A stretch of DNA of 64,000 nucleotides from Psammoneis japonica (lineage: Eukaryota): assembly GCA_008632985.1 (NCBI GenBank), contig QPGO01000074.1, positions 310,001-374,000 of the forward strand, given 5' to 3'. The notes below the pieces were generated by a model. It was given only the letters and a program-made list of their open reading frames with translations, made no database searches and was not told the DNA's origin. Every line of letters begins with the position of its first letter. The stretch's first letter is position 1. The translations under genes and the position numbers were made by a program. This document shows, piece by piece, positions 18,821 through 61,010 of this stretch.

Positions 18821-21179
18821 CATTAGAAACATCCTGCGGGGGAATAAATAGACTCTTCCTACTATCTAGTGCACACCGTTGGCTTTTGGCGCGAACCAGC
18901 AATTCGTTTTGCCACAAGATTGATCATTTCCACGTTGGATAACTTCTACTAACTACGGTAGGGCCATAGTCTCTATATCGATTGTTGATTGCTGCTGTTC
19001 TGTTAGTCCAAACTCAAAGTGTGTGCGCCACTCTTTGCGCCAAGTGAGTGAGCTGACATGACTCATTGTGATGTGCTGGGGCTGTGCTGTGCAGCCTTCG
19101 AGACAGAAGCAGCATGGTCCTCAGCGTTGGCTGTGCTGTTTGACATGATGATGTTCTCTGCTGGAGAGGGGCTGCCCCAGTTTTTGTGCACACCACATGC
19201 ATGAGATCGGTGCTGAACTCAAATTCTGGTGCCTGGCCATCTTCTTGTAATTTTCCTGATTTTGCCAGGTTGCTGACTTTGATCTTTGCTCCTTTGACAT
19301 CTTCCACACTGCAGCCTTCTGCTTTTCCCCATCTTCTCAATGATGTGAGCAACAGTCAGTGCATCAGCTGGACCAACAACAAGCCCAGCTTTTCAGATGC
19401 CATCCACCACACACTGAAGCTGCTCCACATCAGTGGAGCATGTCACAGCTTGCTGAACATGCTCTGTGCTGCTGCTCAAAACTGCCGCTTGCCCCCTCAA
19501 AACAAAGCAGGAGTCAGCTTCTTCTGCTTTGCACTCCCCAGCTCAACCCCCAGCAAAGCTTTGAGCACTGAGGCTCCTCTTGTTCTGCCACCACATCAGT
19601 CTTGGGCTTTGCACTGACTACAGTGCCACTGTTGATGATGATCATGATGGCATGCAAGGTGGCACACATTGCCAATGAAGCAAGTTGGTCTTGGCATTCA
19701 TCATCACTGGCCAGGAAGATGGGCACCAAACTCACAACATGTTGCAAGGCTGAGAAATGTTTGAACCATGGTGAACAACAAGATCAAAAGTGCACCTCAA
19801 ACTCATTGAGAATGCCAGGGGCAGTTCAGTGCACAAACCTTGTCAACTGCAAAGTTGCCCATTTTGCAGCTGCTCTGTGTCCTGGGTTCACAGCAATGCC
19901 AACAAACATCAGAAGAAAAGTGCCCAGCCCAATGCATGGGAAAATGCACACAGAGACAAGAGCAACAGCAACATGTGTGACAGCTGCAGAGTGTGTCCAA
20001 TGGTGAGCAATTTATGCCAGGAGTGCTGCTGCTGTTGAATGAAATTTTGGGAGCAGCGTGCACTGGACAATGAGACTGACAGGAGTGGTGCTGCAAAACA
20101 AAATTTTTGGGGCACATGCGGTGCCAAAAGGTGGCCACAAAATTGTCAATTGGTGCTCCTTTTTTTCTGCAACATTTTTGCACAAGGTGGAGGACAATGG
20201 CAACAGGAAAGCCCAGCAGGAGAAATTGGCTGCCTCAAACAACTCATGTGGTGTGATCACAGAAACACTTGCCCAGATGTGCAAAGTTGGCTCTTGCAGC
20301 TTCACAATGGCTTAAATCCCATGCAGAGGGCAAAGAAACAAAGAGCAAAGGTTCAGGAAAGAGGGGGTTGTTGAAGCTGTCTTGTGATCAATGGATGATG
20401 CTCAGTGACAGCCAATGGCTTTGCATGTGTGGCACCTGAGGACACTGTCAACAAATTTTCATCAGTGGCCACAAGACCCATGCACCAAAAATGGATGTGC
20501 CTGAAATTTGGAGCTTGCGCTTTCCACACAACTGCAATCACATCTTGTGCCCTGCCATGTTGCATGTCTCTGCACCATGCAGAGATCACAGATTTTCACT
20601 TCTGCTTCATTCAGCATTGGGCATTGGGTGTTGGCACAGCACACTGGGCACTGGAGTTCCTTTTGCACAGGTTGAAAGTGGAGCTGACAACCATTGAACA
20701 GGAAAAAGTCACACCAACAATCTGATTGAGAAACATGACTTGTTTGACATTGCAATTTGTTTTTGGGTTTGCAGCGTGTGTGGTGGCATCATTCAGATTC
20801 ATGGCATTTGTGTTGCACCAGAATTCTTTCATGCAATCTCAGCCAAACAGGAATCATGATTGCCCTTTCCTCTCCAAGACCCACCACACTGCCATCACTT
20901 TGCACCACACAAATTGATGGTGGGACTCATGTTTGGTGCAGCTGCCTTCTCCCACCCGACTCTCCCCAGAACACTCATCAAGAACACCCACGCATGTCAT
21001 GACATCTTTGTTGGAAAGCACCTGTTGATTAATTCAACACAGTGCATCCAATGCAGCTGCCAATTTTGCATTTTCATCCATGTTTTCCAAGCTGCTGTCT
21101 TTCCTGCAAGTCCATGTGTGCTTCTGTTTGGAAGATGAGGATGACAGACAGGACGAGGAGAAAAGATCAAGAGAGGCCA

Positions 21180-22260
21180 TTGCAACTCTGGCAAACAGAG
21201 AAATTCACGTGGAATCATTTTGTTCATCAACTGCTTTCCACAAAATGTGACAAAGTGGACTTTGCTGCTGCGAGTCTAGCCAAATCACCTGTTGTTGTTG
21301 TTGCAGACTCCGGCTGCTCTTCCTTGAGTGACTTGATTGCATCCCACAGTGCCAGTGGCAAAATCTTGCCACTGGCAGGCAGACTTTGCCACAACATTGA
21401 CAAAAGTGTGATCGTTTTCCTTCTCCCACCCCATGGAATGATTCCTGATTCCTGCTTTCTTCTTCATCATTGTCTTGGAGTCATTTTTTCCACTGCCATT
21501 GCAAGTGGCGCTGGCATCCTTCAACATGCAACTCACATGGCCCAACTCATTTGCAGAGATCCAAAATTGTTGAAGAGCAACTGGCCACTTTTTTGCCCAG
21601 CGCAGCTCTTGATGTGGAAATCACAAGCACTCAGTGAGAGCTTCTGGCACCCAACTCCATTGATGTTTGTGTCAGAAACATCACGGAGCTTGTTGGCACC
21701 AATGGTGCTGCTCAGAAGCTTCCAGAGCAAAAGAAGCTCAACTCTTCCTTGGCAACATTTCTTTGCACCATTGCTTTGCAAATGACAAGAAAGCACTGGA
21801 GTGACTCAAGAACCATCTCCAGCTGGCATCTTCTGTTGCAGAGATGATGCATGCTGAAAAAGCTGAGTCTGAAAAGAAGAAGTGTGCAGAAGAAGCGGAG
21901 CACCAAATTTTGCACCTGGAGGCTTCAAGAAAGATTGCGGCAAAGAATGGTGTGATCGACAAGTCGATCACCAAAAAAGACCTTTGTGCCATTCTGCTTG
22001 TTGATCACAAATTATTTTTTTGTGAATGAAAGCAAGCACAAGAAAAAGGATGTTTTGGTGCAGAAGCATTACAATGTGATGATTTGATTGGATGGCGGGA
22101 GCAACCGATCTGGATGATGCTGCAACCCAACCAGTGCAGAAGATCCTGCCAAGTGTGAGCAAGAGTTGAGCCAACAAGGGCATCATCTGATGCTCCTTTA
22201 CAATGAAGATTGATGGGTGTAAAAATGGTCTAGCCTGGCAGTGGCACAAAATGGTCCAGT
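21180..22260 (+). mobile_element. Degenerate DDE (pogo/Tc1-like) transposase C-terminal region
   Basis: Reads ALDVEIT..Q*ELLAP...GNI......ND.K.LE*LK..LQLASSVAE...ITKKDLCAILL, which resembles my recollection of diatom DDE_1-associated transposase tails; no catalytic triad visible. Confidence 0.35.
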
Positions 22261-22532
22261 CCAGTTAATGTGTGAATGCAAAGCCAATCCAATCAGTTTC
22301 AGCAGTCATCTGCCAGCAGCTGGCAGTGGCATCATGATGGCTCACCACACTTGGGTTGCGACAATTGTTCAGAGCTTGGACCTTGCAGGCTTGATGTGAG
22401 CTTGACAGTCTCTGGGTCTTCACATTTGTGCCAGGTCTTGTTTTGGGATTGATGACTCTGCTGCATCCAAAGGACAAGTGCGCACGTGCATTGTTGGCCA
22501 TGGGCCAAAGCTGGGTTGGTTTGGCTGGCCGG

Positions 22533-22562
22533 TGCATGCATGCATGCATGCATGCATGCATG
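22533..22562. repeat. (TGCA)7 microsatellite
   Basis: Seven perfect TGCA units plus TG. Confidence 0.95.
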
Positions 22563-22751
22563 TTGGGCATCAACCATCTGCATGTCATCAGGGGACAGAC
22601 AGGACGGACAGGAGTGTGGCTTGTGGTGTGTCACCGGTGGTTGTGCGCGCTTTTTTGCACAGTGTTTGGTTGGCCCACATGGGCTGGGTGGGCAGGTCCG
22701 GTGCCGGTGCAGTGGGCAATTTTTTTGGGTCAGCAGTGTTTCCTGAATGTG

Positions 22752-22850
22752 CATTTTGGTCAGACCAAATTGGCATTTTGGTCGAACCAAAATGCTTTTG
22801 TCGACCAAATTGCCACACAGACCAAATCAATTTGGTTGACCAAATTGACA
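22752..22850. repeat. Cluster of TTTGGTC(G)ACCAAA-like palindromic motifs, probably TE subterminal repeats
   Basis: TTTTGGTCAGACCAAA, TTTTGGTCGAACCAAAA, TTTTGTCGACCAAA, TTTGGTTGACCAAA. Confidence 0.7.
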
Positions 22851-25505
22851 TTTTTGAAATCTTGGCCAAATTCATTTCATGCACATTTCTGCACAAACAA
22901 CACTGACGCAGCTTCTACAAAATTTGTGCGGTGTGTCAACATGCACGTTTTCCAATGGAAGATTCCCGCTGAAAGTGCGCCAAATCCCCCCCCCGAGCAT
23001 CAAATTTGGGAAACACTGGTTGGTGACTGTTTGAATTGATGGTGAGTGAAGCAAGCCTCAGTGCCCAAAAGCAACCCAGGTGTTAAATCTTGAGTTTGTT
23101 GAAAGCACCACAACATCATTGCACAGCAGAACAGCAGTTGCACAGCAGCACAGCAGTCATCAACCATGGCAGCTTGGGTGCAAGTGGCAGTGCACAACAA
23201 CAACATTGACCCCGTTTCTTTTTTCATTCTTGACAACATTTTCACAATCTGTCTGACAAGCTTGGTCATGTTTTGTGTCAATGAGAATTGTGGATGTGTG
23301 GTTTTGCCAAAAAATTGATTGTGTGATTCAAGACAGGTCAGCACTGTTTCAATTGTCAATGGTGCTTTCGCCAATTTTCTCACTTCTTTTTTGTGTTTCA
23401 TTGATCTTTGTTTGGCACAGAAAATTTAAGAGCATGGAGCCTTTTTGTGGTGATCTGCAATCTGCCACTTTTGGGAAGAGCAGCATTGCCATGGGCACAC
23501 ATGATTGGTGAGTTGGGGAACAAGGCATCATGTGATGCAATGCTCTGATGGAAACAGAGGGGGCACTTGTGGCAGAAAGGCAGATGGCTGTGGGAGGAAG
23601 TGACCTGCGGGAGGAGGGGGTGGAATCATTGCAAGCAGGGACATCCTGCTGGCTGCAACAGTCACATGGCATCAACCAATTCCTTGGCAGCATGTCTGGG
23701 CAAGCTTCCTCCAGCTGCACTTTGTTGGCAACTCCCGGCAAGTGGGGGAGAGGGAGTGCGCTGTCATTGGTCACTCTTGTCCTCTCCAGCCTCTTGATTC
23801 TGCCACCTTGCCGGTGATGCTCTGCAGATGCAGCAGCTGGAGCCAGTTGATGAGAAAATGCACAAGGCCCTGCCTCATTGTGACAAACAACCTGCAAGCT
23901 CACTCTTGTCTGACAGAACTTGACAAACCATGCATTGCCTTGTTGGCGCCGTGCCCCACCGCATCAAGATTTGTCATCATCATCAACAAAAGCACACAAG
24001 AAGGCTGCTTGGTCAGATTGTCCACTTTTTGAAGACTGCAGCAGACCTTGCCTGGAACACACTCCCACAATCTGCCCTTTTTCTGTGCTTGCTGTGGCTG
24101 AGGCACCAGAAATGATTCAACTCACTTGCAGTGTCTGTTCAAATGACATGTCTCCATTCAAAATTCAGCTTTGTGCGCCAATGCATGGGATTTTTCATGG
24201 AACGACAAAAACATTGAAAGTGTGGACAATGCCACAGTCAACAACCCACATTTTGCACAACAAAGCAGAAACTGAGATTGCTGGCATTTACTTTTTTCCT
24301 GCTCTTGTCGCAAGTGCTGTGCACCAAATGTGATGAATTGCTGAACAATTGTGCAACTCGCGTGCCAGAAGGGTGGCCATTGCTTTGGGCACAAAATTCA
24401 AGCTTTGCACATGCAGAGACCACAGAAAATGCACCAGCATTTGAGAATGTCCGATCTGTGTAGATCACATCGCACAGCACCACAGAGGTCATTCGATGAT
24501 GTCACTGGGATGACTCACACGACTGCAATGAGATTTCAACACCACATGCTCTGCGCCGGTGTTGGAACAGACATCTGTGCAAAGGGAGAGTGTTGCTTTG
24601 GGCAATAAAATTTGACCTTTGGGCATGTGAATCACACAATTGTTTGGCAACTCACAGCAACTTGAGTGTGGCCATCCAGAGCCAGACAGATCTCACCATC
24701 AACCAACAAGTCCGGAAAGCAACAATCCGTCAGAGACATCACTGCAGCTGGCATTGCTCGCCCATGTGGTGAGCCACTGGTGGAGCTGAGCATTGTTTGT
24801 GATTCAAAAGCTCACATCAAATGGAGCTGACAACTGCAGAGAAGGAGGCAAAGATTCCATCGAGGCTTCAAATGGGGCTTTCTCTGGGGCTTCCCCACTT
24901 GCCTTGAAAGAAACTCTTTCAACTTCCCATGAGTGATGGCAATCGAGGGCCGGCCCATCCAGCACCTTTCCTGGTGCCACCATTGCTGCCATGTTTGTCA
25001 GCCATGGTGAAGAGTGTGGCTGCAATCGGGACATTGTCGTGTGCTGTGTTTCGTTGGCCTTTTCTCTTCTCCAATTTGGGTGTGATGGACATGACAAGCA
25101 ATGCACTTTCTGGAGATTGGCCATCCACAAAAGAGAAGAAATTTGTCATTGCTATTTTTCTGTCTAGAGCTCTAGAAAACCAGCGCAGCATCGCATCATC
25201 GTACAGCCAGGTCATCCCGAGGATGCCCTGAGTAACATCCGTTGGCAAGGGTTGTGCGAACACGAACCACCAACTCTAGCTGTTGACTCCACGAAAAGCT
25301 TGCCGTGCAGTGCGGTGCTGTACGTACGGCGGTTACGTACTTGTAGCCCTACGTACCGTCGGTCCAGACGGCACGGACGTCTTCAGGGCGGGACGGACGG
25401 GACAGATAAAACTTGCATCTATGCAGACCACCGAGTGCGTGGTCAATGATTGTTCGAATATAATCTCACCAACACCTACCAACAGCATTAAATGGATAAT
25501 ATTTT

Positions 25506-29878: not shown

Positions 29879-32800
29879 CGTGCGTGTACCAGGCGAAGCG
29901 ATTGTAAATCAGATTGCAGATCGTTCGCAGTTGTTCAATCGCGAAGTCCGATGCTCGCCACTCACGAGTCGAAAAACGATTCTCGAAAAAATGAGGGTCG
30001 AGCAAGACATCGCAAGACACGAAACAATTATAAGAACATATGCCCAGTTTTTGATATATGTATTCAATGTTGTATACAAATCATAAATATGAAGTTCGGT
30101 TTTCGCAATGAGCTGTTAAATAGGGCTATAGATATAATGTTATCTTTGTGAAAAACTTAACGAATTTTGACGCGACTTTCCCTCGGATGCGAAGTAAATA
30201 CATATGAATACAGTAAGTGCGGGCGGGAACCGAACAGCGTCTTGACACTTTTTGATCCTGGGACAAGTTTGGTGGAATGAGCGCGGGAAACCGGTTGATA
30301 AATCACCTCTCTTGAGCAATGTGGAAACGGGTTAGAAGGCACGCTTTCCATGTGCCGGTGACATCATAAAAGGTGCGGAGGTGTGAGGACACAGGGACCA
30401 ACATCTTTTTTTGCAACAGGCAGACAATTCATCTGTGCTGGGGTGCACAGCAAATGTGGCTCAGCTGACAATTTTTTGCAAGAAGGGGGGTGCCACAGAA
30501 GGAGGCGCGCTGCACTGGCAACTCAAGCAGGCACAATTTGGCCTGCAGAAAAAGCACAATAATGCTGCAAAGCAGAGTTGTTGCTCTCTCTGTGCGCCTC
30601 CCAACTGCCAGCTGCTGACACCACCACTCTGCTGCTTTGAAAAGTCGCCCCCGGCTGCAGGCCCACCGCGAGTTTTGCACACATGTGCTCCTCGAAAAAG
30701 CCTCTCTTTTCTTTGTGCAGCACTTTGCATTGCAGCTGAACTTGCACAAGCCACAATGCACACAATCTTGGTGCCCTGAAAGAAGTTTTTTGGTGTCAGG
30801 AACAAACTGATCAAAGCAATTCTGGGGCTGTTCGCCAGCAGAACGAGGCTTCAGATGTCAGCCACACCTGTGAAGGGCATCAGCCGCCACTGCACTTGAC
30901 TTCACAAAGTGCTGCACTGTGTGGCTCTCATGGAATTGACTGATGTTGATTGGCACTTTTGACCCAGTGTGCAGCCAAGAGAGCAAAGAGATCCCTTCTT
31001 TTCCTCTTGCAAGAGCTGGCGCAACAGCAGCCCAAAGAGCAATCCTTTCTGAGCCAGCCTTCATGGTTGTTTGGCTGGTTGGTTTGTTGCTTTTGTCTTG
31101 CATTGGTTGTCATGGTTTGTGATCAGTTGCCATCTCTGTGACCCAATCACAGTTGTTTTCTTCTGCTGCTTTGTGCTTTGTTCAGCTTTTTTGCCTCTGA
31201 GCGGCGCTGTTTTGGTCACGCCACTTCAGGTCAATGCAATGTCACACTGTTGCCTGCAACTGATTGTCAAAAGTTTGACATCTTTGCTGTGTTTGTTGCA
31301 CCAACAGTTTGGTGTGATCCAGAATCAGTGAAATTTTTGGCGAGGAAGTGCGCCCCAGTTGCTTCTTCACATCGCCGGCTCTTTGCTCTGCCTGAGCCCA
31401 TGGCTTTGTGCACATTTTGCTGAAATGAGTGGCTGTGTCTGGCTGTCTTGTTCAACAACTGTGTGCATTCCAACAAACAAAAGTGGCAGTCAATTCATCA
31501 CCAAAACACCTTTTGATCAGCATCAAACCAAATGTCATCAACTGTCAAATGAAGCACTTGATGAGAGCAGAGTGGGGAGGATTGAAATGGCTGCACAGCG
31601 CACTGAGGAGGTTGTGCGCTGCTTGTGCTCTGCTCACTGTTCTTTGTTGCTGCTGCAAACCATGGCTGTGCAGTTGCTTGGCATCCCAGCACAGCACACA
31701 AAAGAACATCCGCCTCAACAAGAAACCAGTGATGCAATCAAAAGCTGGTGGCAACTTGTTCCTCACATCCTTCTGGTGTTGAGAAGGCACTCATGACCAG
31801 CAGAGAGGTGTGCAGAACATGCACAAAACTTGTTGATTGCTTGGCTCCATTTCCCTGTGAGCAGCTGTGCAAGCTTCTTTGAGAATGAAGAGCACCGTCA
31901 TTTTCCATGGACACAGACAAAGCTGCAGCAGTTTGAGCACAAGCAGGAGTTTCCATTTTTCCTTTTTTTCACCAAAAAGGTGTGCTTTCTCTTTTGTCTC
32001 TCCTCCTTCTTTTTGGCTGCTTTCTGGGAGAGAGCTGGCTTTTGCAGCAGTGCAAACCAAATGTGCACACAAAAAGAAACAACCTCCACAGGAAAGAGCA
32101 CATTTGAAAAGAGGCAAAAACATCTTGTTGTCAATCACTTTGAGCTTGGGCTGCTCATGATCAAACAGAAACAAAAACACTCTTGGTTTGTGTGATTTTT
32201 CTCTCTTCAGGAGGCAAAGCTGCAGAAAAAAAGGGAGCTTTGGGTCCAAGGAATTGTTGAAAGTGGGCATGAGATGGAGGAGAAGGGCATGCATGTGAGA
32301 GCTTTTGTGGTGGTGAGCTTTTATGAGTGCAGCAAGAGAGGCAGGCACAGGGTCAAGCAAGAGAAAGGTGGCATTTCCACAATGCTGACAACTTGATGCA
32401 AGATGTCCTGCAAGTCCATGTGCAAAGTGAGCAGGCATGCCGAGGGGGGGGGATGTGAGGAGTGGCTCACCTGGTGTGTTGGGGGCAAGGCACCACCGTG
32501 TGTGGTGTGCCAGCAAAAGGAGCACACCAGCTGGGTGATCAAGAAAGGTGTGGCCACACCAGCAGCAGTGGGGCACAGTGCCCCATGTGTTGGAGCACTG
32601 GGGCGGGGGTCAGATGCAGTTTTCACAGGACAGACAGACAAAGTTGCAGCAAAAGATGTGCTGACAATTGCAGACAATGTGGCAAATTTGTGCTTGCAAC
32701 TCAGATTGAGTTGTGGGTCTTGTGCTCACGTTTTAGCTTCTGCACCTGGTTGACATGGTGGCAACAGCCATGTGTTTGCAAGCCACATGGTGAGTTTGGA

Positions 32801-32887
32801 GATGGTGAAACCAAATGCATCTGCCAGTCAGCAAGCTGTGAAGCTCCAACACAGAAGCTGGAAACTCATGTGAGTGGTGTTGTTCAA

Positions 32888-32980
32888 GGGCTGGGATGTC
32901 AACAGAAATCCATGCAATGAGGGCTGGGAAGTCAACAGGAATCCAAAAGAAAAGGCTGGGAAGTCAACAGGAATCCAAAG
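32888..32980 (+). repeat. Three tandem copies of an about 32-bp unit GGCTGGGAAGTCAACAGGAATCCA
   Basis: Seen directly, upstream of the gag relic. Confidence 0.85.
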
Positions 32981-33249
32981 ACATGTGTCATGTCAGCAGA
33001 TTGTGGCAAAAGAGCCGGCTGGACAAGGGTGAAGGAACAATCTCTGGAGGGCCTTGCTGTTGAAGAAGCTGTTGAGGGTCTGTGCTGAAAGAGGGTGTGA
33101 CAAGGTTGTGGCGGGGTTGATGAGACCCCAAGTGTGTGGCTGTTGGCAAGCCATGAAACTCCAAAATGAGTCCCTGAAAACTGTTTGGAAGCACAAAAGA
33201 TTTGAAGGAGCGGGTGCATGACACCATTGCCAAGTTGGGATGACAGACA

Positions 33250-34140
33250 GACAGTCAGACGCCAACCACAAAGAAGATCAGCATGTCAGCAGAATGTTTG
33301 GGCTGGAGATGCAGGCACTGACATCTCTGAGGCAGGAGAGCATGCCAAAAGAGCTTGCTCATTCATTGGGAGATGCAGTGCATTGGAGAAGGACAAGGCA
33401 ATCTGGGGCAAGCAATGCAATCACTGTGTGCTGGAACAGAACATGATCTTCAAGACACAGAATGTGGAGGCATTGGGCACAATTGTGGGGCAATGTGCAA
33501 AGGCCATTTGTCAGAAGATTGAAAGAGTGAAAGAGTTCACCAGAGTTGTGAAGGAGTGGGGTGTGGCAGCTCTGCTGGACATTCTCAAATTGATCTTGTT
33601 TGATGCAAATGAGAACACAAACCCACATGATGTCCATGCAGCAAAGGCTTGGAAGCAGTTGGCACTCATTTGTCAAGATGAAGGAGAGGTGCTTCAAGGT
33701 TGTTGCAATCAACTTGCAAGCATGGTTGAAGTGGTGGAGATGTCCTGTGGCAGGATCATCCCCCAGAAGAAATTGCTGAGAAAGAAGATGGGCTCAGCAA
33801 GGAAGCTGATGACACCCAGAACAAAGAAAAGAGCCAGTTGTCAGCAGTGGTGCACCAATGGAAGGCACCAAAGAATGTTGGCATGTCTTGAAAGACCTGC
33901 ATGATTGGCAACTCACATTGGGGGTTGACATTTGTCCCAGTTCAGCCCAGGAGCACTGCAGGTGTTGGACAACTGCAGGGCCAACAAGAGACCTGATGGT
34001 GCAAGTTTTGCACAGAACAAAAAGCAGCAGATGAAATGCTGGAGGTGCAATGAGGTTGGACATGTGAGGAAGAATTTTCCTGACAATGATCATTCATTGG
34101 TGGAGTTGGATGATGTGGACCATGGGAATCAGTGGAATGG
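33250..34140 (+). mobile_element. Degenerate LTR-retrotransposon gag (probably Ty1/copia type) with zinc knuckle
   Basis: IVGQCAKAICQKIE...ALLDILK...AWKQLALICQ..GEVLQGCCNQ (for YY)...VEVVE; knuckle CWRCNEVGHVRKNFP (CX2CX4HX4C with the last Cys lost). Confidence 0.7.
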
Positions 34141-35159
34141 CCAATGATGTGGCATTGGGTGGCATGGACTGCAAGTGCCATCCTTCTGTGCTTGATGTGC
34201 ATGAGGCCAATCAATTGACGGCATTGTCTTTCTTGAAGCAGAGCACTTGTTTCTGTTGTTTGTGGCTGCAAATTGACACTTTGTTTTTTGTGCAAGAAAT
34301 GTGCTCACTTGCAAACTGGGCTCTTTCTCATCATCATGCAGGTTCTCAGTCCACACAGGACCTTGGCATTGTTCACTGGCATCTGTGTGAGACATGGTTG
34401 GAGCTCAGCTCTGGCATTTGAGGCAAGCACAGTCTGGGATTTCATTTTGGTTGGGCATCTCAATTTTGTGAGTTTTTTGAAGATTTCTGGATGGCTGGCT
34501 GCATGGATTTCTTGCTGCTTGGGCTGATTTGAGTGCACTGAAGATGCTTCATTGGCAACAAAATGTTTTGAAGGCAAGACAATGCAAGAGCATCTTGCTT
34601 TTGTTTGGCTTGCAGTCTTGCCCAATGGTGGCTGCACTTCATGCAGAATTTGGCAAAAAGGTTTCAGTTTTGCCCTGCTGTTTGTCAAAAGACATGTGGC
34701 AATCAAGCTGCATCACAAGCACACTCGGACCATCAACTTGAGCTCAGCTTTGATGTCACTGCACATGGAAATGATGCCACAGCAACAACAAAGTGGGCAA
34801 TGTCTTTGACAGCAATGGCATGACATGCGCCATTGTGCCGTGCAACAGCATCATGACTGCACTTCTGATTTGGCATTTTCAGCCACACAAGTGCATGTGC
34901 TACAACTTGCCCCAAGTGTGGAAATCTCAGTGTCAAAAAAGTGACTTTTTCTTTTGACACAGCTGCCATGTGGTGACACTTGTTGTGAAATCATCGCAGT
35001 TGCTTGCCCGTTTGACATCTGCTGCAGTTGAACAAGGTGTCATTGATTCAGCAATCAATGCAAGAATCTGTTTCAACCTTTGTTTTCAAAAATCATTTGC
35101 GAACTTGTTGAGAAAGTTGTTGATGCTTCATTTTTTTGTGTTTCTGCATCCATTGTTGG

Positions 35160-35475
35160 CTGTGTCATTTGCACTTTGCGGGCACAGCTTCATGCACTGT
35201 CTTTTGTGGCTTGTGTGGTTTGTTTGTTGCATCAAGAAGAGTTCCTGAATGTTGTGTTGTTGTGGCAAAAGTCATTGTGTCACAACAAAAGAACAGCTTT
35301 GTGTGCCCTGTTGTTGTTTTTGATTGCATGCTGTTGGTTGCATTGTTTGTGCTTTGCAGGGCACAAACTTTGCCCACTGTCTTTCACGGCATGCATTGTT
35401 TGTTTGTTGCATTGAGAAGAGCACCTGGATGTTGCGTTGTTGTGGCAAGAAGTGTTGTTTTCACAACAAAAAGTC
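35160..35475 (+). repeat. Diverged direct repeat, period about 180 bp
   Basis: TGTTTGTTGCATcaAGAAGAG (35221) vs TGTTTGTTGCATtgAGAAGAG (35401) plus flanking similarity. Confidence 0.8.
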
Positions 35476-36236
35476 ATTTTTGCCATGCTTCTTTCATTTT
35501 TGTTGTGCGTGCAGCTGACCACATTTTTGTTTTCATTGTTGCTTGGGACAGGTTGGAGCAGAGGATGCACATTTGCTGTGAGTGAGTGACCACATTGAAG
35601 TCAAACTCCGCCAGCCAAAGCAATGTGTTGTCAACAGGAAAATGACATGAATGCCAAGAAAGCAACAGCAAAGCACTCCAAGGAACATGGCACCACCACC
35701 TGAAGATGACAGTTCCTCAAGTTCCTTGGGCAGAGATGGGGCTGTTCTAAAAGAATGTTGGCATCCTTGAGAAGCTCTTCTGCAAGTGAAAAACATGAAA
35801 GAGGTGGAGTGCAGTGCAGCCAACCTTCTTTCATCAGACATTGATCTGAGACTTTGTTTGAGGGAAAGTCCACAGCTGGTGTGTTAAAGTTCACATCACC
35901 CTGTGTTTTCCAAGGTGCCTCACTCATGCGTGGTGGCTGCAAAGCACACGATTGTTGTGCAGAGGCTCAATCTCAACAAAAAAAGCACACAGCCCATCTG
36001 TGTCCCCCCCCTGCCCTGCCCTGCCCTGGTGCCCCACCCAGCAGACCAGAGACAGATGGGTGAGATGACAGTCAGGGTTTGGGGCCAACTGCTTTCAAAA
36101 TGATCAAATTTGCAAACAGTTTTTGCACAAAAAACGACACCCAAGAAGGACTTTTGAAGGCCTCGGGGCTGAACAACAGCCATTTTTGGGTGTCACAGTT
36201 GTCTTGTCTTTCATTGTTGTTCATCTCAATTCATGT

Positions 36237-52633: not shown

Positions 52634-52799
52634 GAAGTGCTAGCTAAGTGTGACTGGATGTGGATGAGGCAACGAGTGACGGGGGCGTTTTGAGAAAAGG
52701 CGTTTTCAAATTGAGAGAGCTCCGCTAAAACATGAAGTAAAAGAACTCAGCATTTATTTGTTGAAGCGACAACTACAATCTGCAACCTAGCTAGCCTGA

Positions 52800-54350
52800 C
52801 AGCAATGTGCCATCGTGCCATGGCACAGCATGACGCATGTGTTGATTGGCCCGAGGACCCGGAGGATCGCGGCGTCCCGCGTGGACGGGAACGAAAATCT
52901 TGGAATCCCGGCCCGCCGCCGCAGTCGAAGCAGCTTTGTGACATCGACAACAATCTTCCTCTAAAAACGCAGTCTTCTGTCTCCAAACTTTTGATGCGCA
53001 TTGTTGATCTTTCACATGCTGGAAAGACTTGGTGGGGACAGAAAACTTCCTCTGCACTCTTGTTGTGGCTTGCCGCTTTTTTCTTTTCTTCCCGCGGCAG
53101 CAAAGCACAGTGAGAAACTCAGAAAACAAAAACCGTGCTCAAATCATGAAATGTTTGCCTGAGTTCAAGCTAAAAAAGCAGCAAACAACCACTCTTGATG
53201 GTCTTTGCAAAGGCAAAGCATGAGAACTCTTGTGGCATGTTTGTCAAGTCATGTGCACACGATGTGTTGAGTGCCTGGTTGGCTGGTGTGTGCCATTGAC
53301 TTTGGCAAAAATCAAGCAGCTGACTGTTTCAATTGGCTTGAAGCTTTTCTTTGGGAAAAAGCAAGAGTCACATAACACTGGGTGGGCACCAAGCACCAGC
53401 ACCAGTAAAAATCCAGCACAGCTGCAAGACAGGCTGCCCCCCACCAGTCAATCCTTGCCAGTCAGCAGCCGCCAGGGGCACAAACAAGAAATTGCAGGAG
53501 AAGCACAAAAGCAGCAAGGGCACAAAGTTGTGGCCCAACACCACCCATCATGTCAGCCAAGAGGAGTGCTGGGCATGTGAAACAGCTGTCCTCTGGTGGC
53601 AGCCATCCAAGGCAGCAGCGCATCTCTGGGGTCAGCATGTCACAACCAGCCATGCTGATTGTTGCATGACACACATGTTGGTTGTGTCAGCCAGTTGTTC
53701 TGTCTCACTGTGCACTTGAAGATGAGCTTGACTCATCAATTTTTCTCATCTCTCTGCACCCTTGAGCACAAAAACACAACACATCACATTGAACATCTGC
53801 TGGGAGTTGCCAGAAAAAGAGATGACTTGCGCTCCCACCCCACCCCTTTGTTGCATTTTTTCTGTGCCACAATCTCCTCTGAGTTGCTCATTGCAGCTGT
53901 GTCACACACTGTTGTGGCCCACATCTTGGTGCACTCAGCGCTGCTGAGCATGTCATCCTCAGCTCTGTCGTGCTGTGCTGCCTTCTGTGGCATCAGCATG
54001 TGTCTGGACAAGAGAGTGAACACACAGAAAGAGCAGCTCCCACTGAGCAGTGAAACATCTTCACACTGATGTTCATGCTGCAACCAGCCATCACATCTTG
54101 AACAAAATGATGTGTCGCACTAGAAGGGGTGCCATGGAAGGGCTGAGGCTGCCACAGAAGAGGATTGCAAGTCTTCACATGGCCTGTCTTCACATGGACA
54201 AGCCCCCCTCCTTTGGATGCACACACTGGTCTAACAAGGAATTGTTGTCTGCTGCAATTCGTTGCACCTGAGTGCCCCAATGCTCCTGTGTGGGTCAAAC
54301 CAACTGTGTGTCTGCAAAAGCCTGGATCCAATCAAATGTTGGATCCTCAA
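52800..54350. mobile_element. TpA-depleted degenerate block; CpG retained at the left edge
   Basis: Compositional signature only. Confidence 0.65.
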
Positions 54351-54652
54351 ACTTTAAGCAGCTCCCTGTAATTTTTTATCATCCACAATGATTTACGGCA
54401 ACAATGTTGTTTTGATCGTAATCCGTTCCCTCTTCGAGTCTACCAGAAAGTAATGTATTGCTACTTCTGTTGGTAAACGTGCTATAGTCAAATGAGCATT
54501 ATCTTCACAGTTTTTACTGTAGTAAATTCACAGATCACAACACACTCCTTGCCGTTTAGTTTTGAAACAACAGGCGTACTGGTTTGCATGCCATCCAATA
54601 GTTTCCACATATACTTCATTCCCAAATCGCTTCCCCATGTTATTATGATTCT

Positions 54653-57387: not shown

Positions 57388-58218
57388 TTACTGGGGATGC
57401 TGACAATCGAATGTAACTCTGCAAGGTGTTCCACACCACGCCCTGCATCCTGCAGCACTGATACAGGAGCCTAATACCATCCGCGGAAACCCTCGGACTG
57501 TACTGCCGCCGAACTGGTTTCGTGAGCCAACGGCATACGTCTCGTGCAGCACCATCCGGCATTGGGTAGTACGCATGTAATCTCTTGTGATGAGACGTGC
57601 CGTTTGACGCTCTATCTTACGTCCTTCCGTCTTACAAACAAAGTTTGGTGTATAGATGCACCCGCTTGACAAGCTTGCATAGGTTTGACTGCCATCGCCC
57701 AATAGCGTTTCCATAAATAATGAATTATACCGCCACCTTAAGTATTTGTAGGTCGTCTTCCTCGACACCGGTAGAGACGACACGGCAAAAGAGGCATTGG
57801 ATAAGTCTTCCGGAGAAGGAGTTCCAACTTGAGTTATGTTCGGAAGGACGGTTGGAAAGGTAGTCCCTTCTTTCCCCTTGTTGTCCTCCTCCGTCTGGCT
57901 CTTCTGGTTCTTGGGGATCCCTGCTGGTGGGCAGGAAAATGACACTGTAAGCCCCACACCTACCGCTACACTCACCGTGGCTGCTGCAATCAGCAGAAGC
58001 TTCACGAGCTTTGCACGATTTGAAGTTCCTTCATGGTTATCGTTGAGTTTGATTCGTGCATCTTTTTGATCTTCTGCGAGTTCGATTCGTGCATCTTTTT
58101 GATCTTCTGCATAATCGCTCTCCTGGCTCTCCTCATCAACAAACGTGTCCTCCTCTCCGGATGTGAGAGCTGGATGCTCTTGGTGCACTTTGGAATTGGG
58201 CTGGTGTTCATTGCTCAT
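57388..58218 (-). CDS. Hypothetical single-pass membrane protein with an 11-aa tandem repeat
   Basis: ATG at 58218; AEDQKDARI(E/K)L twice (33-nt repeat at 58051 and 58084); TM segment LLLIAAATVSVAVGVGLTV; Cys-rich C-terminus. Confidence 0.65.
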   Translation of the reverse strand: MSNEHQPNSKVHQEHPALTSGEEDTFVDEESQESDYAEDQKDARIELAEDQKDARIKLNDNHEGTSNRAKLVKLLLIAAATVSVAVGVGLTVSFSCPPAGIPKNQKSQTEEDNKGKEGTTFPTVLPNITQVGTPSPEDLSNASFAVSSLPVSRKTTYKYLRWRYNSLFMETLLGDGSQTYASLSSGCIYTPNFVCKTEGRKIERQTARLITRDYMRTTQCRMVLHETYAVGSRNQFGGSTVRGFPRMVLGSCISAAGCRAWCGTPCRVTFDCQHPQ

Positions 58219-58299
58219 CTTTGCTGCAATGTTCGTCGCACAACGACAGTCCTCTCCAAAGATTTGTTGCGTGAAACTATGGGGACTTCGGTGCAGTTT

Positions 58300-61010
58300 T
58301 CTAAGAAAAGCTCTCTTGCTTGAGAAAATGCAGTCCATTCGTGCATTGCACGCGTTGCTTGTCCAATCACATTGTTGCAAGTTCAGATGACCGTTAAAAA
58401 AGAACAAAAAAATGACGTCAAAAGTCAAAAAAGATTTTTTCCTGGACCGCCCCACCCATGAACAGGAGTCTCTTTGGAAATGGTTGTGAAGTTCAAGTCT
58501 TGTTTTCTTGCACAGTGCACACATCAAATTGCTCACATCTCATTTTGCAGCCGGCGTCATTTGTTTTTCTGCGTTTGTTTTCCACAGAGACCCGCGTTGT
58601 GGATCTGCAGAAGACACACTTTGCAAAAGTGCAGGCAATTTGCTGGGCTTGCCGGGAATGGGAATGCTGATGCCCTGAACATGTGGGTGTTGAGCCTCCT
58701 TGAGTGACATGTCATCATGATTGTTGCCCCGGCAATGGCCAGATGACCTGGCGCCAGATGAAAATGTTTTGTGCCACATTGGCTCTCCCTCGGCAACCCG
58801 ACTCACCCTCGTTTGCACCATCTTTTGTGCCTCCAAAGCTGGCAATGAAACTTTTCCATCCTTTTTTTCCTCTGTCACAGCTCTGCCATGCTGCCATGGA
58901 GGGAAAGAGTTTCCCCCACCTGGGGGGAGTGTCAGTTGCATGGAAAGAGGAGGAAAGCAACAAACGGGAAAGAGCAAAAGACCTGGGTGCTCATGGCACT
59001 TGAGTGCACCACCCATTTGACATGCAAACATGCACAGGAGAACATGGTGCTCTCTTGTGGGGTTGCCCAGAGAGAAAAAGAGTTGCCAGTCTCAGCAGTG
59101 GTGGCGGGTCAGCGGGTGCCTCCTCCACAGATCCTCTGACAATTCTGTTGACTGGTCACATGAGATGTTTCATCCAGTCTTTTCAGCTGACAAGATCTTG
59201 TCCAGCGCCAAAGCAAGAGAGAGAAAGAGCACAACAACATTGCACCTTGGCAGTCCAAACTCAAAAGGACCTGCAGACTTCAGCTGTGTCACCCAATGAC
59301 CCCAAGTTTGCAAATCTCAAGCCACTCTCACAAAAAAGCAACAAGCCACTTGCAGTTGTTGGGTTGAGCTCAACTTGCCCTGTCATCTTTTTCATGGTGC
59401 ACAACATGGCAGCAGAAAGAGAAAATTTTGCAGATGGCTGGTGTTGCAGCACAGCAACAAAAGCAAAAAGCAAACACACAAAGAAGACAAGAAAGAATCA
59501 TTGAAGTAGAGCACCCCACAACATCTTTGAGGGCGTCTCAGCCACAGCTGTGATTGATGGTGAAGAGGGGTGACACCAGAGGCATTGAACAGAAATGTTG
59601 GCAGGAGAAGCATGTGGCTTTTCTGCTCTCTGCTTGCTGTGTCACTTCTTGGGCTTTGATTTTTCATTTCTCATGACAAACACATGATCTGAGTGTGCAC
59701 TGCAAAGAAGAGCTGCAGCTGCTTGCGGTTGCTCCATCAATGCTGTGCACACTGAAAGCTGAAAGCAACACATTGGGCAAATCAGGGTGGCAAAAAGCAA
59801 AGATGGTGCTTTTGCTTGCCAGCAAGCATCTTCTCTGGTGGACATGCCGCTGCACTTCTGGCTGGCCTGGTGCCTCTTGTCTTGGAGTTGTTGTGCCCCC
59901 CTTTGGCTGGTGCATGATTTTGCTTGAGAGTGTTTGGGCAGAGATGTTGACAGTGTTGGGATGTTTGGGGGGGCTGCTGTTCCCAACAAAAAGATTTTTG
60001 CAAGAAGAAAGAAATTGTGCTGGTTTTTCCTGCAGGAGTTTGCTGGTGCTGTGACATGCAGCCATGCAGCAAACATGAGGGAGAGCCATCAGCCAGCACT
60101 TTTTAGCCAGCATTTTGTGTGAATGAAATGAAAGAAAGATCTGAGCTCACATCTGGCAAAGTTCACAAAGCAGAGCAACAAGAGCTTGATCTTTTTCCAG
60201 CACAGGAAGAAAAAGACCCAGTGTGTGATGGCCAAGCCACAAGTGCATCAGAGCTGCAGGCTGGCACGTGCTGCCTGCATGTCAGCATTGATCAACACAG
60301 TCTTTTTTTTAAACATCATTGTCATTCTTTCTGAGTTTGCAGCTTTTGTGGTGCTCCACAGCCACAGACATTTCTGAGGCTAAAACTAAATCACTGGGGT
60401 CATCCAGCTGCAAATCTGCACAAAAAACCATTTGTGTCAGCCATGTTGGTTGTCAGAAGCAAGAGACATTGTGAGCATTTGACCATTGAAGTTTTGAGTG
60501 TGTTCCTTGCCCCCCGTGTTTGAGGTGCCACACAAAAGTTTGTTGTTGGTGCAATGCACACAACAAGATCCTCTCCCTCTGTGCATCATTTTGAGATGAT
60601 GGATGTGCAATGCAACAAAAAACAGCCAAAGGTCACCAATCTCTTTGCTGCTGGGGCTTGCTGCTGCCCAATCTCTCACCAAAGAGTCAGCGGTGCACCC
60701 AACTCTGACGAATGAGTCCTGCCCATGAATCATCAAGGATGCCAGAGCACACCAGCACCCTTTTCTCAATGGCCACATCCCCTGGTGTGCAGAGGTGTGG
60801 TGCTTGCTGTGGAGATGTGATGTGTTCTTGACTGGGGGTGCTGGTGACTCTCTCTCCCACAGAGAGGAGTCAAGAGCAGGAAGAAAAGGAGTGACATTGT
60901 GCACCGCCACTGCCGGCTTTTGGGAGGGGCGCACAACACCACCACTGCAATTGACACAAAAACACCACCACTGCAATTGACACAAAAAAGCTGCCCAACG
61001 CAAAAGACAA
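58300..61010. mobile_element. TpA- and CpG-depleted degenerate block, origin unrecognised
   Basis: Compositional signature; 26-bp tandem duplication at 60935-60986. Confidence 0.7.

What the first reader, a model, noticed from the sequence alone, without database searches (positions are those of the whole stretch)
19010..61010. Two-compartment genome: multi-kb TpA-free blocks alternate with normal gene islands
Seen: blocks at about 19010-25150, 30370-38700, 41950-44700, 52800-54350 and 58300-61010 keep only scattered TA and CG, while neighbouring genes use TA normally; transitions occur within a few hundred bp or less. The blocks hold relics of unrelated classes (gag, PIF1 helicase, DDE-like), so the process is not specific to retroelements or reverse transcription. 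Inference: it acts on chromosomal DNA domains. TA and CG both drain into TG/CA, giving a convergent end-state composition.
Basis: partly seen in the sequence, partly recalled or inferred. Interest (0 to 1): 0.88.

Follow-up and report, generated by a model that had tools for sequence, protein, structure and literature searches.

The report
TpA-erased transposon graveyards in a diatom
About a third of this diatom DNA stretch consists of dead transposon remains from which nearly every TA and most CG steps were mutated into TG or CA, the footprint of a TA-directed hypermutation so far reported only in one unrelated alga.

Summary
Five blocks (20.8 kb) have TA o/e 0.03 and CG o/e 0.17, with TG and CA at about 1.8. 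Neighbouring genes and intergenic DNA have TA 0.5-0.7 and CG about 1. Most edges are sharp to tens of bases.

The loss is mutational. A younger Ty3/gypsy relic (3-3800) has lost TA but kept CG. At 25 conserved Tyr columns it keeps 4, with 13 Cys (TGY) and 5 His (CAY), including the RT YxDD Tyr. So TA loss and CG loss are separate processes, and TA loss is faster or earlier.

Both DNA strands are hit. Outcomes cluster in same-strand runs, and TTA/TAA sites resist.

Block 2 holds a retroelement gag relic and a PIF1-helicase relic. Parts of blocks 1 and 2 are multi-copy, and paralogues carry TA or CG where the window has TG or CA.

The organism is a diatom by its FCP relatives. The same TpA-to-TpG/CpA signature was measured live in Bigelowiella natans (2026 preprint). 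My searches found no diatom report.

Verdict: new member of a just-described kind, here run to saturation and combined with CpG decay. Enzyme, targeting and in-situ action are inferred.

The parts
19005..25152 (.). Block 1: TA- and CG-depleted tract. No recognisable protein relic. The part 22336-25003 is multi-copy in the genome.
   Evidence: Composition, edges. Summed depth of contigs laid at 80% or more is 360-830 at 22336-23669 and 24337-25003, against about 60-85 for single-copy parts. Pfam found nothing credible in ORFs of 50 aa or more.
30368..38595 (.). Block 2: composite TA- and CG-depleted tract holding at least two unrelated mobile-element relics.
   Evidence: Depth is 1550-2070 at 32341-34341 and 410 at 37010-37676.
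33202..34168 (+). Retroelement gag relic with a CCHC zinc knuckle. It has no Tyr left, and homologue Tyr positions read Cys.
   Evidence: the search for homologous proteins found 1 hit, P0124 (386 aa, PF00098), E 1e-27. BLASTP gave 33% identity over 247 aa. tblastn placed it at 33202-34168. Pfam zf-CCHC is weak, E 0.005.
36662..37868 (-). PIF1-family helicase relic, about 6x depth. No Rep domain was found beside it.
   Evidence: Pfam PIF1 E 9.8e-5 on ORF 37599-37877. There were 3 hits in the 1.84-billion library, E 6e-8 to 1.5e-5, and 2 of the 3 carry Pfam PIF1. tblastn of P0122 residues 9-410 gave E 1.7e-25 within the window.
35139..35471 (+). Diverged tandem duplicate inside block 2 whose copies differ by many TG/CA double mismatches.
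   Evidence: Self-BLAST gave 75% identity. The alignment shows TG opposite CA at many sites. A second pair at 36237-36502 and a pair at 44328-44620 each show one such site.
41949..44437 (.). Block 3: TA- and CG-depleted tract. TA stays scarce to about 44726 while CG resumes at 44438. Content unidentified, copy number not tested.
   Evidence: No Pfam hit (the latter covering ORFs up to 43699).
52793..54354 (.). Block 4: TA-free from 52793, CG-depleted from 52998. The first 205 bp are TA-free but very CG-rich. Content unidentified.
58113..61017 (.). Block 5: fuzzy left edge (58113-58395), sharp right edge (61017/61018). Content unidentified.
3..3800 (+). Ty3/gypsy pol relic: RT-RNaseH at 3-1103 in frame 3, integrase at 1483-2916 in frame 1. 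This is the intermediate state: TA largely lost from about 200 onward, CG retained, reading frame nearly intact.
   Evidence: Pfam Integrase_H2C2 and rve. 120 of 120 Pol homologues match it, at 55-65% identity. Tyr and codon analysis. Composition.

Best explanation
The blocks are old, dead insertions of mobile DNA in a diatom chromosome. They include at least an LTR-retroelement gag and a PIF1-helicase element, and a younger Ty3/gypsy copy lies at the window's start. Two separate transition processes have acted on them.

(1) A fast, TpA-specific A:T-to-G:C hypermutation turns TA into TG or CA, depending on which strand's base is changed.
- It acts on both strands.
- In a young copy it leaves runs of same-strand changes a few hundred bases long.
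- It spares TTA/TAA relatively.
- It goes on until TA is all but gone.
- It stops at or near the insertion's edge.

(2) A slower decay of CG to TG/CA, most simply deamination of 5-methylcytosine in silenced, CG-methylated transposons.

Both drain into TG/CA, which gives the common end state.

Shown here: the composition, the direction of change, the TpA specificity, the involvement of both strands, the separability of the TA and CG losses, the repeat and TE nature of parts of blocks 1 and 2, and the contrast with island non-coding DNA.

Inferred: that the change happens in the chromosome after insertion, that it is a targeted defence, that the enzyme is a DNA-acting adenine deaminase with a 5'-T preference (ADAT2/TadA-like), and that CG loss is due to methylation.
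For: Direction and specificity.
- At 25 columns where at least 70% of 40 Pol homologues have Tyr, the window keeps 4. It has 13 Cys (TGY), 5 His (CAY) and 1 each of W, R and T. His is kept at 9 of 9, Cys 7/7, Gly 29/31, Ala 28/29 and Arg 34/37.
- Of 506 conserved columns 115 are changed. Single-step explanations are TA>TG 32, TA>CA 17, CG-type 2, all other transitions 9 and transversions 25; 30 need several steps.
- The RT active-site YxDD reads HLDD, so this is damage and not adaptation.
- The gag relic has Cys where its homologue has Tyr.

Family baseline. 78 related gypsy loci from metagenomes have TA o/e 0.56-1.18, median 0.75. The window copy has 0.23, and 0.08-0.14 at 2001-3500.

Independent resolution per copy.
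- Tandem duplicates inside blocks show TG opposite CA.
- 1221 contigs of run X1 lie on 19001-39000 at 80% or more. Transitions were seen at 645 places and transversions at 251.
- Among the 40 best-supported differences shown (868 more were not shown), paralogues carry TA at 10 sites and CG at 7 sites where the window has TG or CA. At 4 sites they have CA against the window's TG.

Not the genome's neutral equilibrium. Island DNA outside long ORFs (10,914 bp) has TA o/e 0.70 and CG 0.99.

Same-strand runs. There are 15 runs of outcome type against 23.2 +/- 3.1 expected, P = 0.007.

Context. 35 of 44 surviving TA in blocks and 34 of 50 in the gypsy relic lie in TTA/TAA, against 588 of 1513 in the islands. 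TGC gains more and TGA less than a context-free model predicts.

Precedent. In B. natans mutation-accumulation lines, 230 of 231 mutations in two integrated viral regions were A>G or T>C, and the text states that all of these GC-biased mutations fall on TpA. The rate was about 6e-7 per site per generation, in chromosomal single-copy DNA (bioRxiv 10.64898/2026.01.13.699255; abstract, Results and Discussion read).
Against: - No mutation was observed happening, so in-situ action is an analogy.
- Sharp edges with TA-dense flanks right up to the border would fit mutation before integration equally well.
Their transposon origin is therefore inferred from composition, plus repeat depth for part of block 1.
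- Large parts of blocks 1 and 2 are single-copy at 80% or more.
- The forward simulation from island DNA reproduces TA, CG, TG and CA but fits the other 12 dinucleotides poorly (r = 0.53). GC rises by 16.8/kb against 0.4 simulated, and AT falls by 10.7/kb against a rise of 2.2. Either there are context preferences or the ancestral composition differed.
- TG against CA counts in the blocks show no excess variance (chi2/df 1.0), so same-strand runs are seen only in the young copy. That run test uses 49 amino-acid-changing events only.
- The Cys over His excess at Tyr codons (13:5) is not significant on its own.
- DNA methylation, chromatin, small RNAs and the enzyme repertoire could not be examined, because no genome is held and no RNA run was listed.
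Confidence: 0.72

Rival explanations
1. Editing before integration. Each element copy is hypermutated as RNA, cDNA or extrachromosomal DNA during transposition, by an ADAR- or APOBEC-style restriction factor for adenine, and it lands dead on arrival. The chromosome itself is never targeted.
For: - Edges are sharp and coincide with what look like insertion borders, with no leakage into TA-dense flanks.
- Copies differ independently at the same sites.
- Same-strand runs resemble single-strand deamination during replication of an element.
- TA loss in the gypsy copy rises from the 5' to the 3' part: 20, 7, 5, 1 ... 0 TA per 200 bp.
Against: - Both strands are hit in one copy (TA>TG 32, TA>CA 17). 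Sense-RNA editing followed by reverse transcription cannot give this.
- A PIF1-helicase relic with no retro features is equally TA-free.
- A loss of 95% or more on both strands is hard to reach in one passage.
- A graded series exists. The gypsy relic has TA 0.23 and CG 0.81; 22501-23000 has TA 0.03 and CG 0.48; most of the blocks have TA 0-0.06 and CG 0-0.2. This suggests continuing exposure.
- In B. natans the same signature arises in integrated DNA.
Confidence: 0.13
2. The chromosomal, TpA-directed process is the same, but the chemistry is thymine modification and not adenine deamination. A TET/JBP-type dioxygenase would oxidise T in TpA to 5-hydroxymethyl- or 5-formyl-uracil in silenced DNA. 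That base mispairs with G and gives T>C, which reads as A>G on the other strand.
For: TpA is its own reverse complement, so T>C and A>G cannot be told apart from sequence. Same-strand runs fit either chemistry. From memory, not from any call: dinoflagellate 5hmU and trypanosome base J favour T before A, and 5-formyluracil pairs with G.
Against: No evidence from this window or from any search bears on base modification in this diatom. The relative resistance of TAA and the excess of TGC outcomes read naturally as a 3'-neighbour preference of an enzyme acting on the A. They can be restated for the T strand, however.
Confidence: 0.1
3. No targeting. TA- and CG-free DNA is simply the neutral mutational equilibrium of this genome, or the result of GC-biased gene conversion among repeats, and selection keeps TA and CG in genes and regulatory DNA.
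For: The genome is gene-dense, so little neutral DNA exists outside the blocks. TA is under-represented everywhere (o/e 0.51 in ORFs).
Against: - Non-ORF island DNA has TA o/e 0.70 and CG 0.99, higher than in ORFs.
- Transitions happen within tens of bases.
- In the gypsy relic A>G or T>C outside TpA is rare, 6 against 49 at TpA. This excludes a general W-to-S bias.
- G+C is the same in blocks and islands, 0.480 against 0.478.
- The gypsy reading frame is almost intact (one stop, one frameshift) although three quarters of its TA are gone. TA loss therefore far outran ordinary decay.
Confidence: 0.03
4. The blocks are foreign DNA, or elements whose native composition avoids TA and CG, for instance to escape nucleases or RNA sensors. 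The composition would then be inherited and not acquired.
For: UpA and CpG are jointly avoided in many RNA viruses (general knowledge, no call). Blocks 1, 3, 4 and 5 have no identifiable genes.
Against: - Conserved and catalytic Tyr residues are replaced by Cys or His, so function was destroyed.
- Relatives of the same gypsy family have normal TA.
- Paralogues in the same genome still hold TA or CG at sites where the window has TG or CA.
- No long ORFs survive in the blocks.
Confidence: 0.02

Closest known systems
TpA-directed hypermutation of integrated viral DNA in the chlorarachniophyte Bigelowiella natans (Mettrop et al., bioRxiv 10.64898/2026.01.13.699255, 2026; abstract, Results and Discussion read)
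   Same: - The signature is identical: only TpA is hit, giving TpG or CpA on either strand.
- It is confined to integrated foreign DNA and contrasts with normal host DNA.
- The long-term footprint is TpA depletion with CpA+TpG gain in clustered windows.
- RT and DDE domains are enriched among TpA-poor CDS.
- A deaminase (ADAT2-like) is proposed there.
   Different: - The organism is a diatom (Stramenopila), not a rhizarian.
- The targets seen here are transposon relics, partly multi-copy, not giant-virus or virophage inserts.
- The loss is far more complete: TA o/e 0.03 against Rho 0.45 for their NCLDV region and a cut-off of 0.43 or less for their clusters.
- It is combined with CpG decay, which the preprint does not mention.
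- This report adds the TTA/TAA resistance and the same-strand runs.
- No live mutation rate was measured here.
Repeat-induced point mutation (RIP) of Neurospora and other fungi
   Same: Transition hypermutation disables repeated or mobile DNA, with a dinucleotide preference, both strands affected, sharp limits and strong compositional domains. Diatoms other than P. tricornutum carry DNMT4 enzymes related to the RIP factor RID, of unknown function (PMC9998398, passages read).
   Different: The polarity is opposite. RIP turns CpA into TpA, so TpA rises and G+C falls. Here TpA is destroyed and G+C is unchanged. A C5-methyltransferase-like enzyme cannot explain A>G or T>C. Dependence on duplication and on a sexual phase is unknown here.
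CpG decay of methylated transposons by 5-methylcytosine deamination (vertebrates, plants; TE methylation in diatoms)
   Same: CG o/e is 0.17 with gain of TG and CA, only inside the TE blocks.
   Different: It explains only the CG half. The gypsy relic shows TA loss without CG loss. Methylation of these blocks was not measured.
ADAR-type A-to-I hyperediting of repeat-derived double-stranded RNA and A-to-G hypermutated retro-copies in animals
   Same: A>G with a 5' U/T preference, directed at repeats.
   Different: ADARs are metazoan and act on RNA, and only sense-strand A>G could be inherited through reverse transcription. Here T>C on the sense strand is common (17 of 49), a helicase relic without retro features is affected, and TAG is not the favoured triplet.

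Membership tests
TpA-directed A:T>G:C hypermutation of integrated foreign DNA (Bigelowiella type) | Loss restricted to TpA, with matching gain of TpG and CpA | tested here: met
   The gypsy relic has TA o/e 0.23, TG 1.61 and CA 1.49 with CG 0.81. 49 of 58 single-step transitions at conserved codons are at TpA.
TpA-directed A:T>G:C hypermutation of integrated foreign DNA (Bigelowiella type) | Direction is TA to TG/CA, not the reverse | tested here: met
   Conserved Tyr goes to Cys 13 times and His 5 times out of 25 columns. The YxDD Tyr is His. The family baseline for TA o/e is 0.56-1.18. Paralogues keep TA where the window has TG or CA.
TpA-directed A:T>G:C hypermutation of integrated foreign DNA (Bigelowiella type) | Either strand can be hit | tested here: met
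   TA>TG 32 and TA>CA 17 on the sense strand of one copy. TG is about equal to CA in the blocks.
TpA-directed A:T>G:C hypermutation of integrated foreign DNA (Bigelowiella type) | Confined to foreign or mobile DNA, while host genes and intergenic DNA are spared | tested here: met
   Gag, PIF1 and gypsy relics are present, with repeat depth. Island ORFs have TA 0.51 and non-ORF DNA 0.70. Blocks 3-5 have unidentified content.
TpA-directed A:T>G:C hypermutation of integrated foreign DNA (Bigelowiella type) | Arises in chromosomal DNA at a rate orders of magnitude above background, in bursts | not testable with these tools
   This needs mutation-accumulation lines or population resequencing. The only hints are the same-strand runs and one TG (window) against TA (run X1) difference at 19582.
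Fungal RIP | C>T at CpA, so that TpA rises and CpA/TpG fall | tested here: not met
   TpA falls to o/e 0.03 and TG/CA rise to about 1.8.
Fungal RIP | Only duplicated sequence is mutated | tested here: inconclusive
   Parts of blocks 1 and 2 are 6-30x in depth, while other parts are single-copy at 80% or more. Older copies may have diverged below that threshold.
5mC-driven CpG decay | CG depleted with TG/CA gain in silenced repeats | tested here: met
   CG o/e is 0.17 in blocks against 0.97 outside.
5mC-driven CpG decay | The DNA is CG-methylated | not testable with these tools
   No methylation data are available. Surviving CG sites sit mainly in GCGC and CCGC contexts.
ADAR-type RNA hyperediting fixed by retrotransposition | Only A>G on the sense strand of retro-copies | tested here: not met
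   There are 17 TA>CA (T>C on the sense strand) among 49 events. A PIF1 relic is also affected.

The most novel reading that the evidence does not exclude
Diatoms possess a dedicated genome-defence system that recognises integrated mobile DNA in the chromosome. It repeatedly deaminates adenine (or oxidises thymine) at TpA on one strand at a time until every TA is gone. This would be a mirror image of fungal RIP, shared with chlorarachniophytes and therefore possibly ancient and widespread in the SAR supergroup. As a by-product it creates kilobases of DNA that can no longer form TAA or TAG stops, TATA boxes or Tyr codons. That would permanently disarm the elements and mark them compositionally.
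Probability: 0.45. Interest if true: 0.85.

Novelty: new member of a known kind. Interest (0 to 1): 0.7.

Why it matters
A TpA-specific hypermutation of invading DNA has been reported only once, in a 2026 preprint on a chlorarachniophyte. Its enzyme and range are unknown.

Finding its saturated footprint in a diatom has three consequences:
- It places the process in a second, ecologically dominant lineage.
- It suggests that transposons, and not only viruses, are targets.
- It offers genetically tractable relatives in which the enzyme could be sought.

The window adds three mechanistic handles:
- TA loss precedes CpG loss and is independent of it.
- Changes come in same-strand runs.
- TTA/TAA sites resist.

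In practice, TA o/e becomes a simple annotation track for dead mobile DNA in diatom genomes. Similarity searches will miss these relics, so a 'de-mutating' step, as used for RIP, would be needed.

Tried and rejected
Whole genome. None is held, so no genome-wide TA o/e distribution and no search for deaminase, TET/JBP or DNMT genes was possible.

Read-through six-frame Pfam scan of whole blocks. It was replaced by ORF pieces:
- 116 ORFs of 90 aa or more gave only a weak PIF1 hit.
- 147 of 198 ORFs of 50-89 aa gave only a weak zf-CCHC hit.
- The last 51 short ORFs, mostly in blocks 3-5, were not scanned.

Similarity between blocks. None was found, either by BLASTN or in purine/pyrimidine coding.

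Gypsy Pol proteins. 120 of them hit only the relic at 3-2916, not the blocks.

Exhaustive HMMER search with the PIF1 region. Only 3 weak hits.

Metagenome scan for gypsy relatives. The patterns used both contained Tyr, so mutated copies were selected against. That none of the 78 loci is TA-poor gives only the family baseline and says nothing on the range of the process.

RNA. No RNA holder was listed for the stretch, so transcription of the blocks is untested. Run X3 laid nothing.

Atlas search with the Nuo51 protein. It gave no taxonomic signal.

Earlier findings of this scan. They held only phage cases of CA/TG or TpA bias, unrelated to this one.

TG-versus-CA overdispersion in blocks, as a proxy for same-strand runs. 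None was found.

Explanations rejected: GC-biased gene conversion and general W-to-S bias, neutral equilibrium, native TA avoidance, ADAR-type editing and RIP. The reasons are given under rivals and membership.

Literature. Searches for a diatom report of TpA loss or RIP-like mutation and passages of PMC2806351, PMC9998398 and PMC6604790 gave none. The supplements of the Bigelowiella preprint are closed and may hold extended-context data.

Full report

Yes. Over the whole window TA o/e is 0.38 and TG and CA are 1.4. This average hides two states.

In 500-bp windows, five stretches have TA o/e 0-0.17, CG o/e 0-0.48 and TG/CA o/e 1.55-2.67. Everything between them has TA about 0.4-0.9 and CG about 0.6-1.3.

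| Region | Length | TA /kb (o/e) | CG /kb (o/e) | TG /kb | CA /kb |
|---|---|---|---|---|---|
| Blocks, refined borders | 20,835 bp | 2.1 (0.03) | 10.0 (0.17) | 115.6 | 112.4 |
| Rest, without gypsy relic | 39,365 bp | 38.5 (0.57) | 55.5 (0.97) | 74.1 | 71.7 |

- The sum TA+CG+TG+CA is the same in both, 240.2 and 239.8 per kb. G+C is also the same, 0.480 and 0.478. This is what pure transitions from TA and CG into TG and CA would give.
- TA counts per 200 bp are bimodal. 72 of 320 windows have none and 34 have one, and the second mode lies at 5-8.
- Most edges are sharp. TA is dense up to 19004, from 25153, up to 30367, up to 41948, from 54355 and from 61018.
- Three edges are less simple. TA-free but CG-rich margins lie at 52793-52997 and about 44438-44726, and fuzzy edges lie at 38512-38725 and 58113-58395.
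- The stretch is present almost letter for letter in contigs of a DNA run (records 1-8, 1-9 differences each). That run may be the source of the assembly.

**2. The organism**

The islands hold ordinary genes with long uninterrupted ORFs. Pfam identifies chlorophyll a/b-binding, MGDG synthase, mTERF, complex I 51K, Sel1, WD40/Utp12, RING and adaptin domains.

The light-harvesting protein at 46545-47309(-) has its best named relatives in diatoms:
- fucoxanthin chlorophyll a/c protein of Nitzschia inconspicua, 65% identity;
- Bacillariaceae sp.;
- Cylindrotheca.

The best unnamed hit has 74% identity. The Atlas agrees. The window therefore comes from a diatom, probably a pennate one. It is not Bigelowiella.

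**3. Is the loss mutation or native composition?**

The window starts inside a Ty3/gypsy element. RT-RNaseH lies at 3-1103 and integrase at 1483-2916. All 120 Pol homologues retrieved match it, at 55-65% identity.

From about position 200 to 3800 it is TA-poor (o/e 0.23, and 0.08-0.14 at 2001-3500) but keeps CG (0.81). 78 related loci from metagenomes have TA o/e 0.56-1.18, median 0.75. The search patterns used for them contained Tyr, so this is a baseline only.

The element was aligned with 40 homologues:
- Of 25 columns with Tyr in at least 70% of them, the window keeps Tyr in 4. It has Cys (TGY) in 13, His (CAY) in 5, and W, R and T once each.
- His is kept at 9 of 9, Cys 7/7, Gly 29/31, Ala 28/29 and Arg 34/37.

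At codon level, 115 of 506 conserved columns are changed:

| Single-step explanation | Count |
|---|---|
| TA>TG | 32 |
| TA>CA | 17 |
| CG>TG or CG>CA | 2 |
| All other transitions | 9 |
| Transversions | 25 |
| Several steps needed | 30 |

The catalytic YxDD of the reverse transcriptase reads HLDD. The frame has only one stop and one frameshift.

This supports four conclusions:
- The change is damage, not adaptation.
- It is highly specific for TpA.
- It hits both strands.
- It ran far ahead of ordinary decay and of CpG loss.

**4. What is in the blocks?**

No long ORFs survive, and TGA is the only common stop. Pfam on 116 ORFs of 90 aa or more and on 147 of 198 ORFs of 50-89 aa gave only a weak PIF1 and a weak zf-CCHC hit.

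Follow-up confirmed both:
- The stretch 33202-34168(+) matches a 386-aa zf-CCHC protein (E 1e-27; 33% identity over 247 aa). It has Cys where the relative has Tyr, and no Tyr of its own.
- The stretch 36662-37868(-) matches PIF1-domain proteins. E was 6e-8 to 1.5e-5 in the 1.84-billion library, and 2 of the 3 hits carry Pfam PIF1. tblastn within the window gave E 1.7e-25.

No DDE relic and no Rep domain were found. Blocks do not resemble each other, even in purine/pyrimidine coding.

Contigs of DNA run X1 were laid on 19001-39000 at 80% identity or more.
- Single-copy depth is about 60-85.
- Depth is 360-830 at 22336-23669 and 24337-25003.
- Depth is 1550-2070 at 32341-34341, the gag region.
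- Depth is 410 at 37010-37676, the PIF1 region.
- Parts of blocks 1 and 2 are therefore repeat families, and the other parts are single-copy at this threshold.

**5. Were copies mutated independently?**

Tandem duplicates inside blocks differ by TG opposite CA at many sites (one site each). That is the expected result when an ancestral TA or CG is resolved separately in each copy.

In the laid contigs, transitions were seen at 645 places and transversions at 251. Of the 40 best-supported differences that the tool printed (868 more were not shown), the breakdown is as follows:
- paralogues carry TA at 10 sites where the window has TG or CA;
- paralogues carry CG at 7 such sites;
- paralogues carry CA against the window's TG at 4 sites;
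- the window keeps CG against a paralogue's CA at 1 site;
- 18 are other changes.

Less-mutated copies thus still exist in the same genome.

**6. Is it just neutral drift?**

No.
- Island DNA outside ORFs of 120 aa or more (10,914 bp) has TA o/e 0.70 and CG 0.99. This is higher than in the ORFs (0.51 and 0.96).
- A>G and T>C outside TpA are rare in the gypsy relic, 6 against 49.
- G+C does not rise.

This excludes a genome-wide bias and GC-biased gene conversion.

**7. Mechanistic detail**

(a) Order of the two losses. There is a graded series, which suggests that TA loss is faster or earlier than CG loss.

| Stage | TA o/e | CG o/e |
|---|---|---|
| Gypsy relic | 0.23 | 0.81 |
| 22501-23000 | 0.03 | 0.48 |
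| Most of the blocks | 0-0.06 | 0-0.2 |

(b) Same-strand runs. Along the gypsy relic the 49 inferred events form 15 runs of one outcome type, against 23.2 +/- 3.1 expected (P = 0.007). One stretch has 13 consecutive TA>TG events over 884-1799, and another has six TA>CA events over 2050-2264. This suggests bursts that act on one strand over several hundred bases. In the saturated blocks, TG against CA counts show no excess variance (chi2/df 1.0). So this is seen only in the young copy and rests on few events.

(c) Sequence context.
- 35 of 44 surviving TA in the blocks and 34 of 50 in the gypsy relic lie in TTA or TAA, against 588 of 1513 in the islands. TTAA is the most over-represented.
- TGC (=GCA) gains 16.6/kb against 10.0 predicted by a context-free model. 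TGA (=TCA) gains 6.5 against 10.8.
- This points to a dislike of A, and a liking for C, 3' of the changed A.
- It also explains Cys over His at Tyr codons without invoking a strand bias.
- A context-free forward simulation reproduces TA, CG, TG and CA, but fits the other 12 dinucleotides only at r = 0.53.

**8. Comparison with what is known**

Searches for diatoms with TpA, RIP or hypermutation terms found no description of this. Three papers were checked by passage search:
- The diatom TE paper PMC2806351 does not mention it.
- The P. tricornutum mutation-accumulation paper PMC6604790 reports a GC-to-AT bias and no TpA effect.
- PMC9998398 notes that many diatoms carry DNMT4 enzymes related to the RIP factor RID, of unknown function.

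The decisive hit is a 2026 preprint on Bigelowiella natans (bioRxiv 10.64898/2026.01.13.699255). It reports the following:
- In mutation-accumulation lines, 231 of 302 nuclear mutations fell in an integrated giant-virus region and a virophage region.
- 230 of these 231 were A>G or T>C, and the text says all of these GC-biased mutations fall on TpA.
- The rate was about 6e-7 per site per generation, and only some lines were affected.
- The genome holds 124 clusters of TpA-poor, CpA+TpG-rich windows, and RT and DDE domains are enriched among TpA-poor CDS.
- An ADAT2-like adenine deaminase is proposed.
- Diatoms and CpG are not mentioned.

The present window shows the same signature in another phylum. 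Here it is on transposon relics, run to near completion and overlaid by CpG decay. It is the opposite of fungal RIP, which creates TpA. It fails the tests for ADAR-type editing: both strands are hit, an element without retro features is affected, and there is no TAG preference.

**9. Verdict**

The two compartments, the drain into TG/CA, the diatom origin, and the gag and PIF1 relics hold. The DDE relic was not found, and TA and CG loss are two processes.
- Best explanation (0.72): old mobile-DNA insertions exposed to a TpA-directed A:T>G:C hypermutation of the Bigelowiella type, plus 5mC-type CpG decay.
- Inferred and not shown: action in the chromosome, targeting, the enzyme and methylation.
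- Novelty: a new member of a kind described only in a 2026 preprint.
- Interest: 0.7.

Noticed in passing
window 3-3800: A Ty3/gypsy pol relic cut by the window start. The first 200 bp or so have a normal TA density (20 per 200 bp), and TA then falls to 0-7 per 200 bp. The hypermutated tract therefore begins inside the element, or the copy is a mosaic.
   Followed up: yes
window 19582: The window has G (TTGTT). The otherwise identical 6,084-base contig of run X1 has A (TTATT). This TG/TA difference inside block 1 could be a recent event, a strain difference or a polishing error.
   Followed up: partly
window 52793-52997 and 44438-44726: These margins are TA-free but unusually CG-rich (24 CG in 205 bp at the first). 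They lie between the fully depleted blocks and host genes. They may be unmethylated parts of the insertions, or leakage of TA loss into host promoter DNA.
   Followed up: no
window 22533-22562, 22751-22795; joint 22784/22926: Perfect 28-base and imperfect 45-base palindromes lie in the multi-copy part of block 1. One contig joins opposite strands there.
   Followed up: no
window 40028-41383 (-): A Sel1-repeat gene made of about ten internally similar 108-bp-phased repeats (64-70% DNA identity). It has normal TA and CG although it is repetitive, so tandem repetition inside a host gene does not attract the TA loss.
   Followed up: partly
window 41441-41507 vs 41795-41863: An inverted repeat of about 70 bp (83% identity) lies just outside the left edge of block 3, in TA-normal DNA.
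   Followed up: no
window 27350-28664: Run X2 gives depth 324 on the complex I 51K gene alone, while its depth is near zero elsewhere. This is probably a conserved gene picked up from other organisms or a different library, not a copy-number signal.
   Followed up: no
blocks, all frames: The blocks lack TA, so they cannot encode Tyr or form TAA or TAG. Their translations are rich in Cys, His, Gln and Trp, which can create spurious zinc-finger-like Pfam hits. The weak zf-CCHC hit was accepted only after an independent homologue match.
   Followed up: yes
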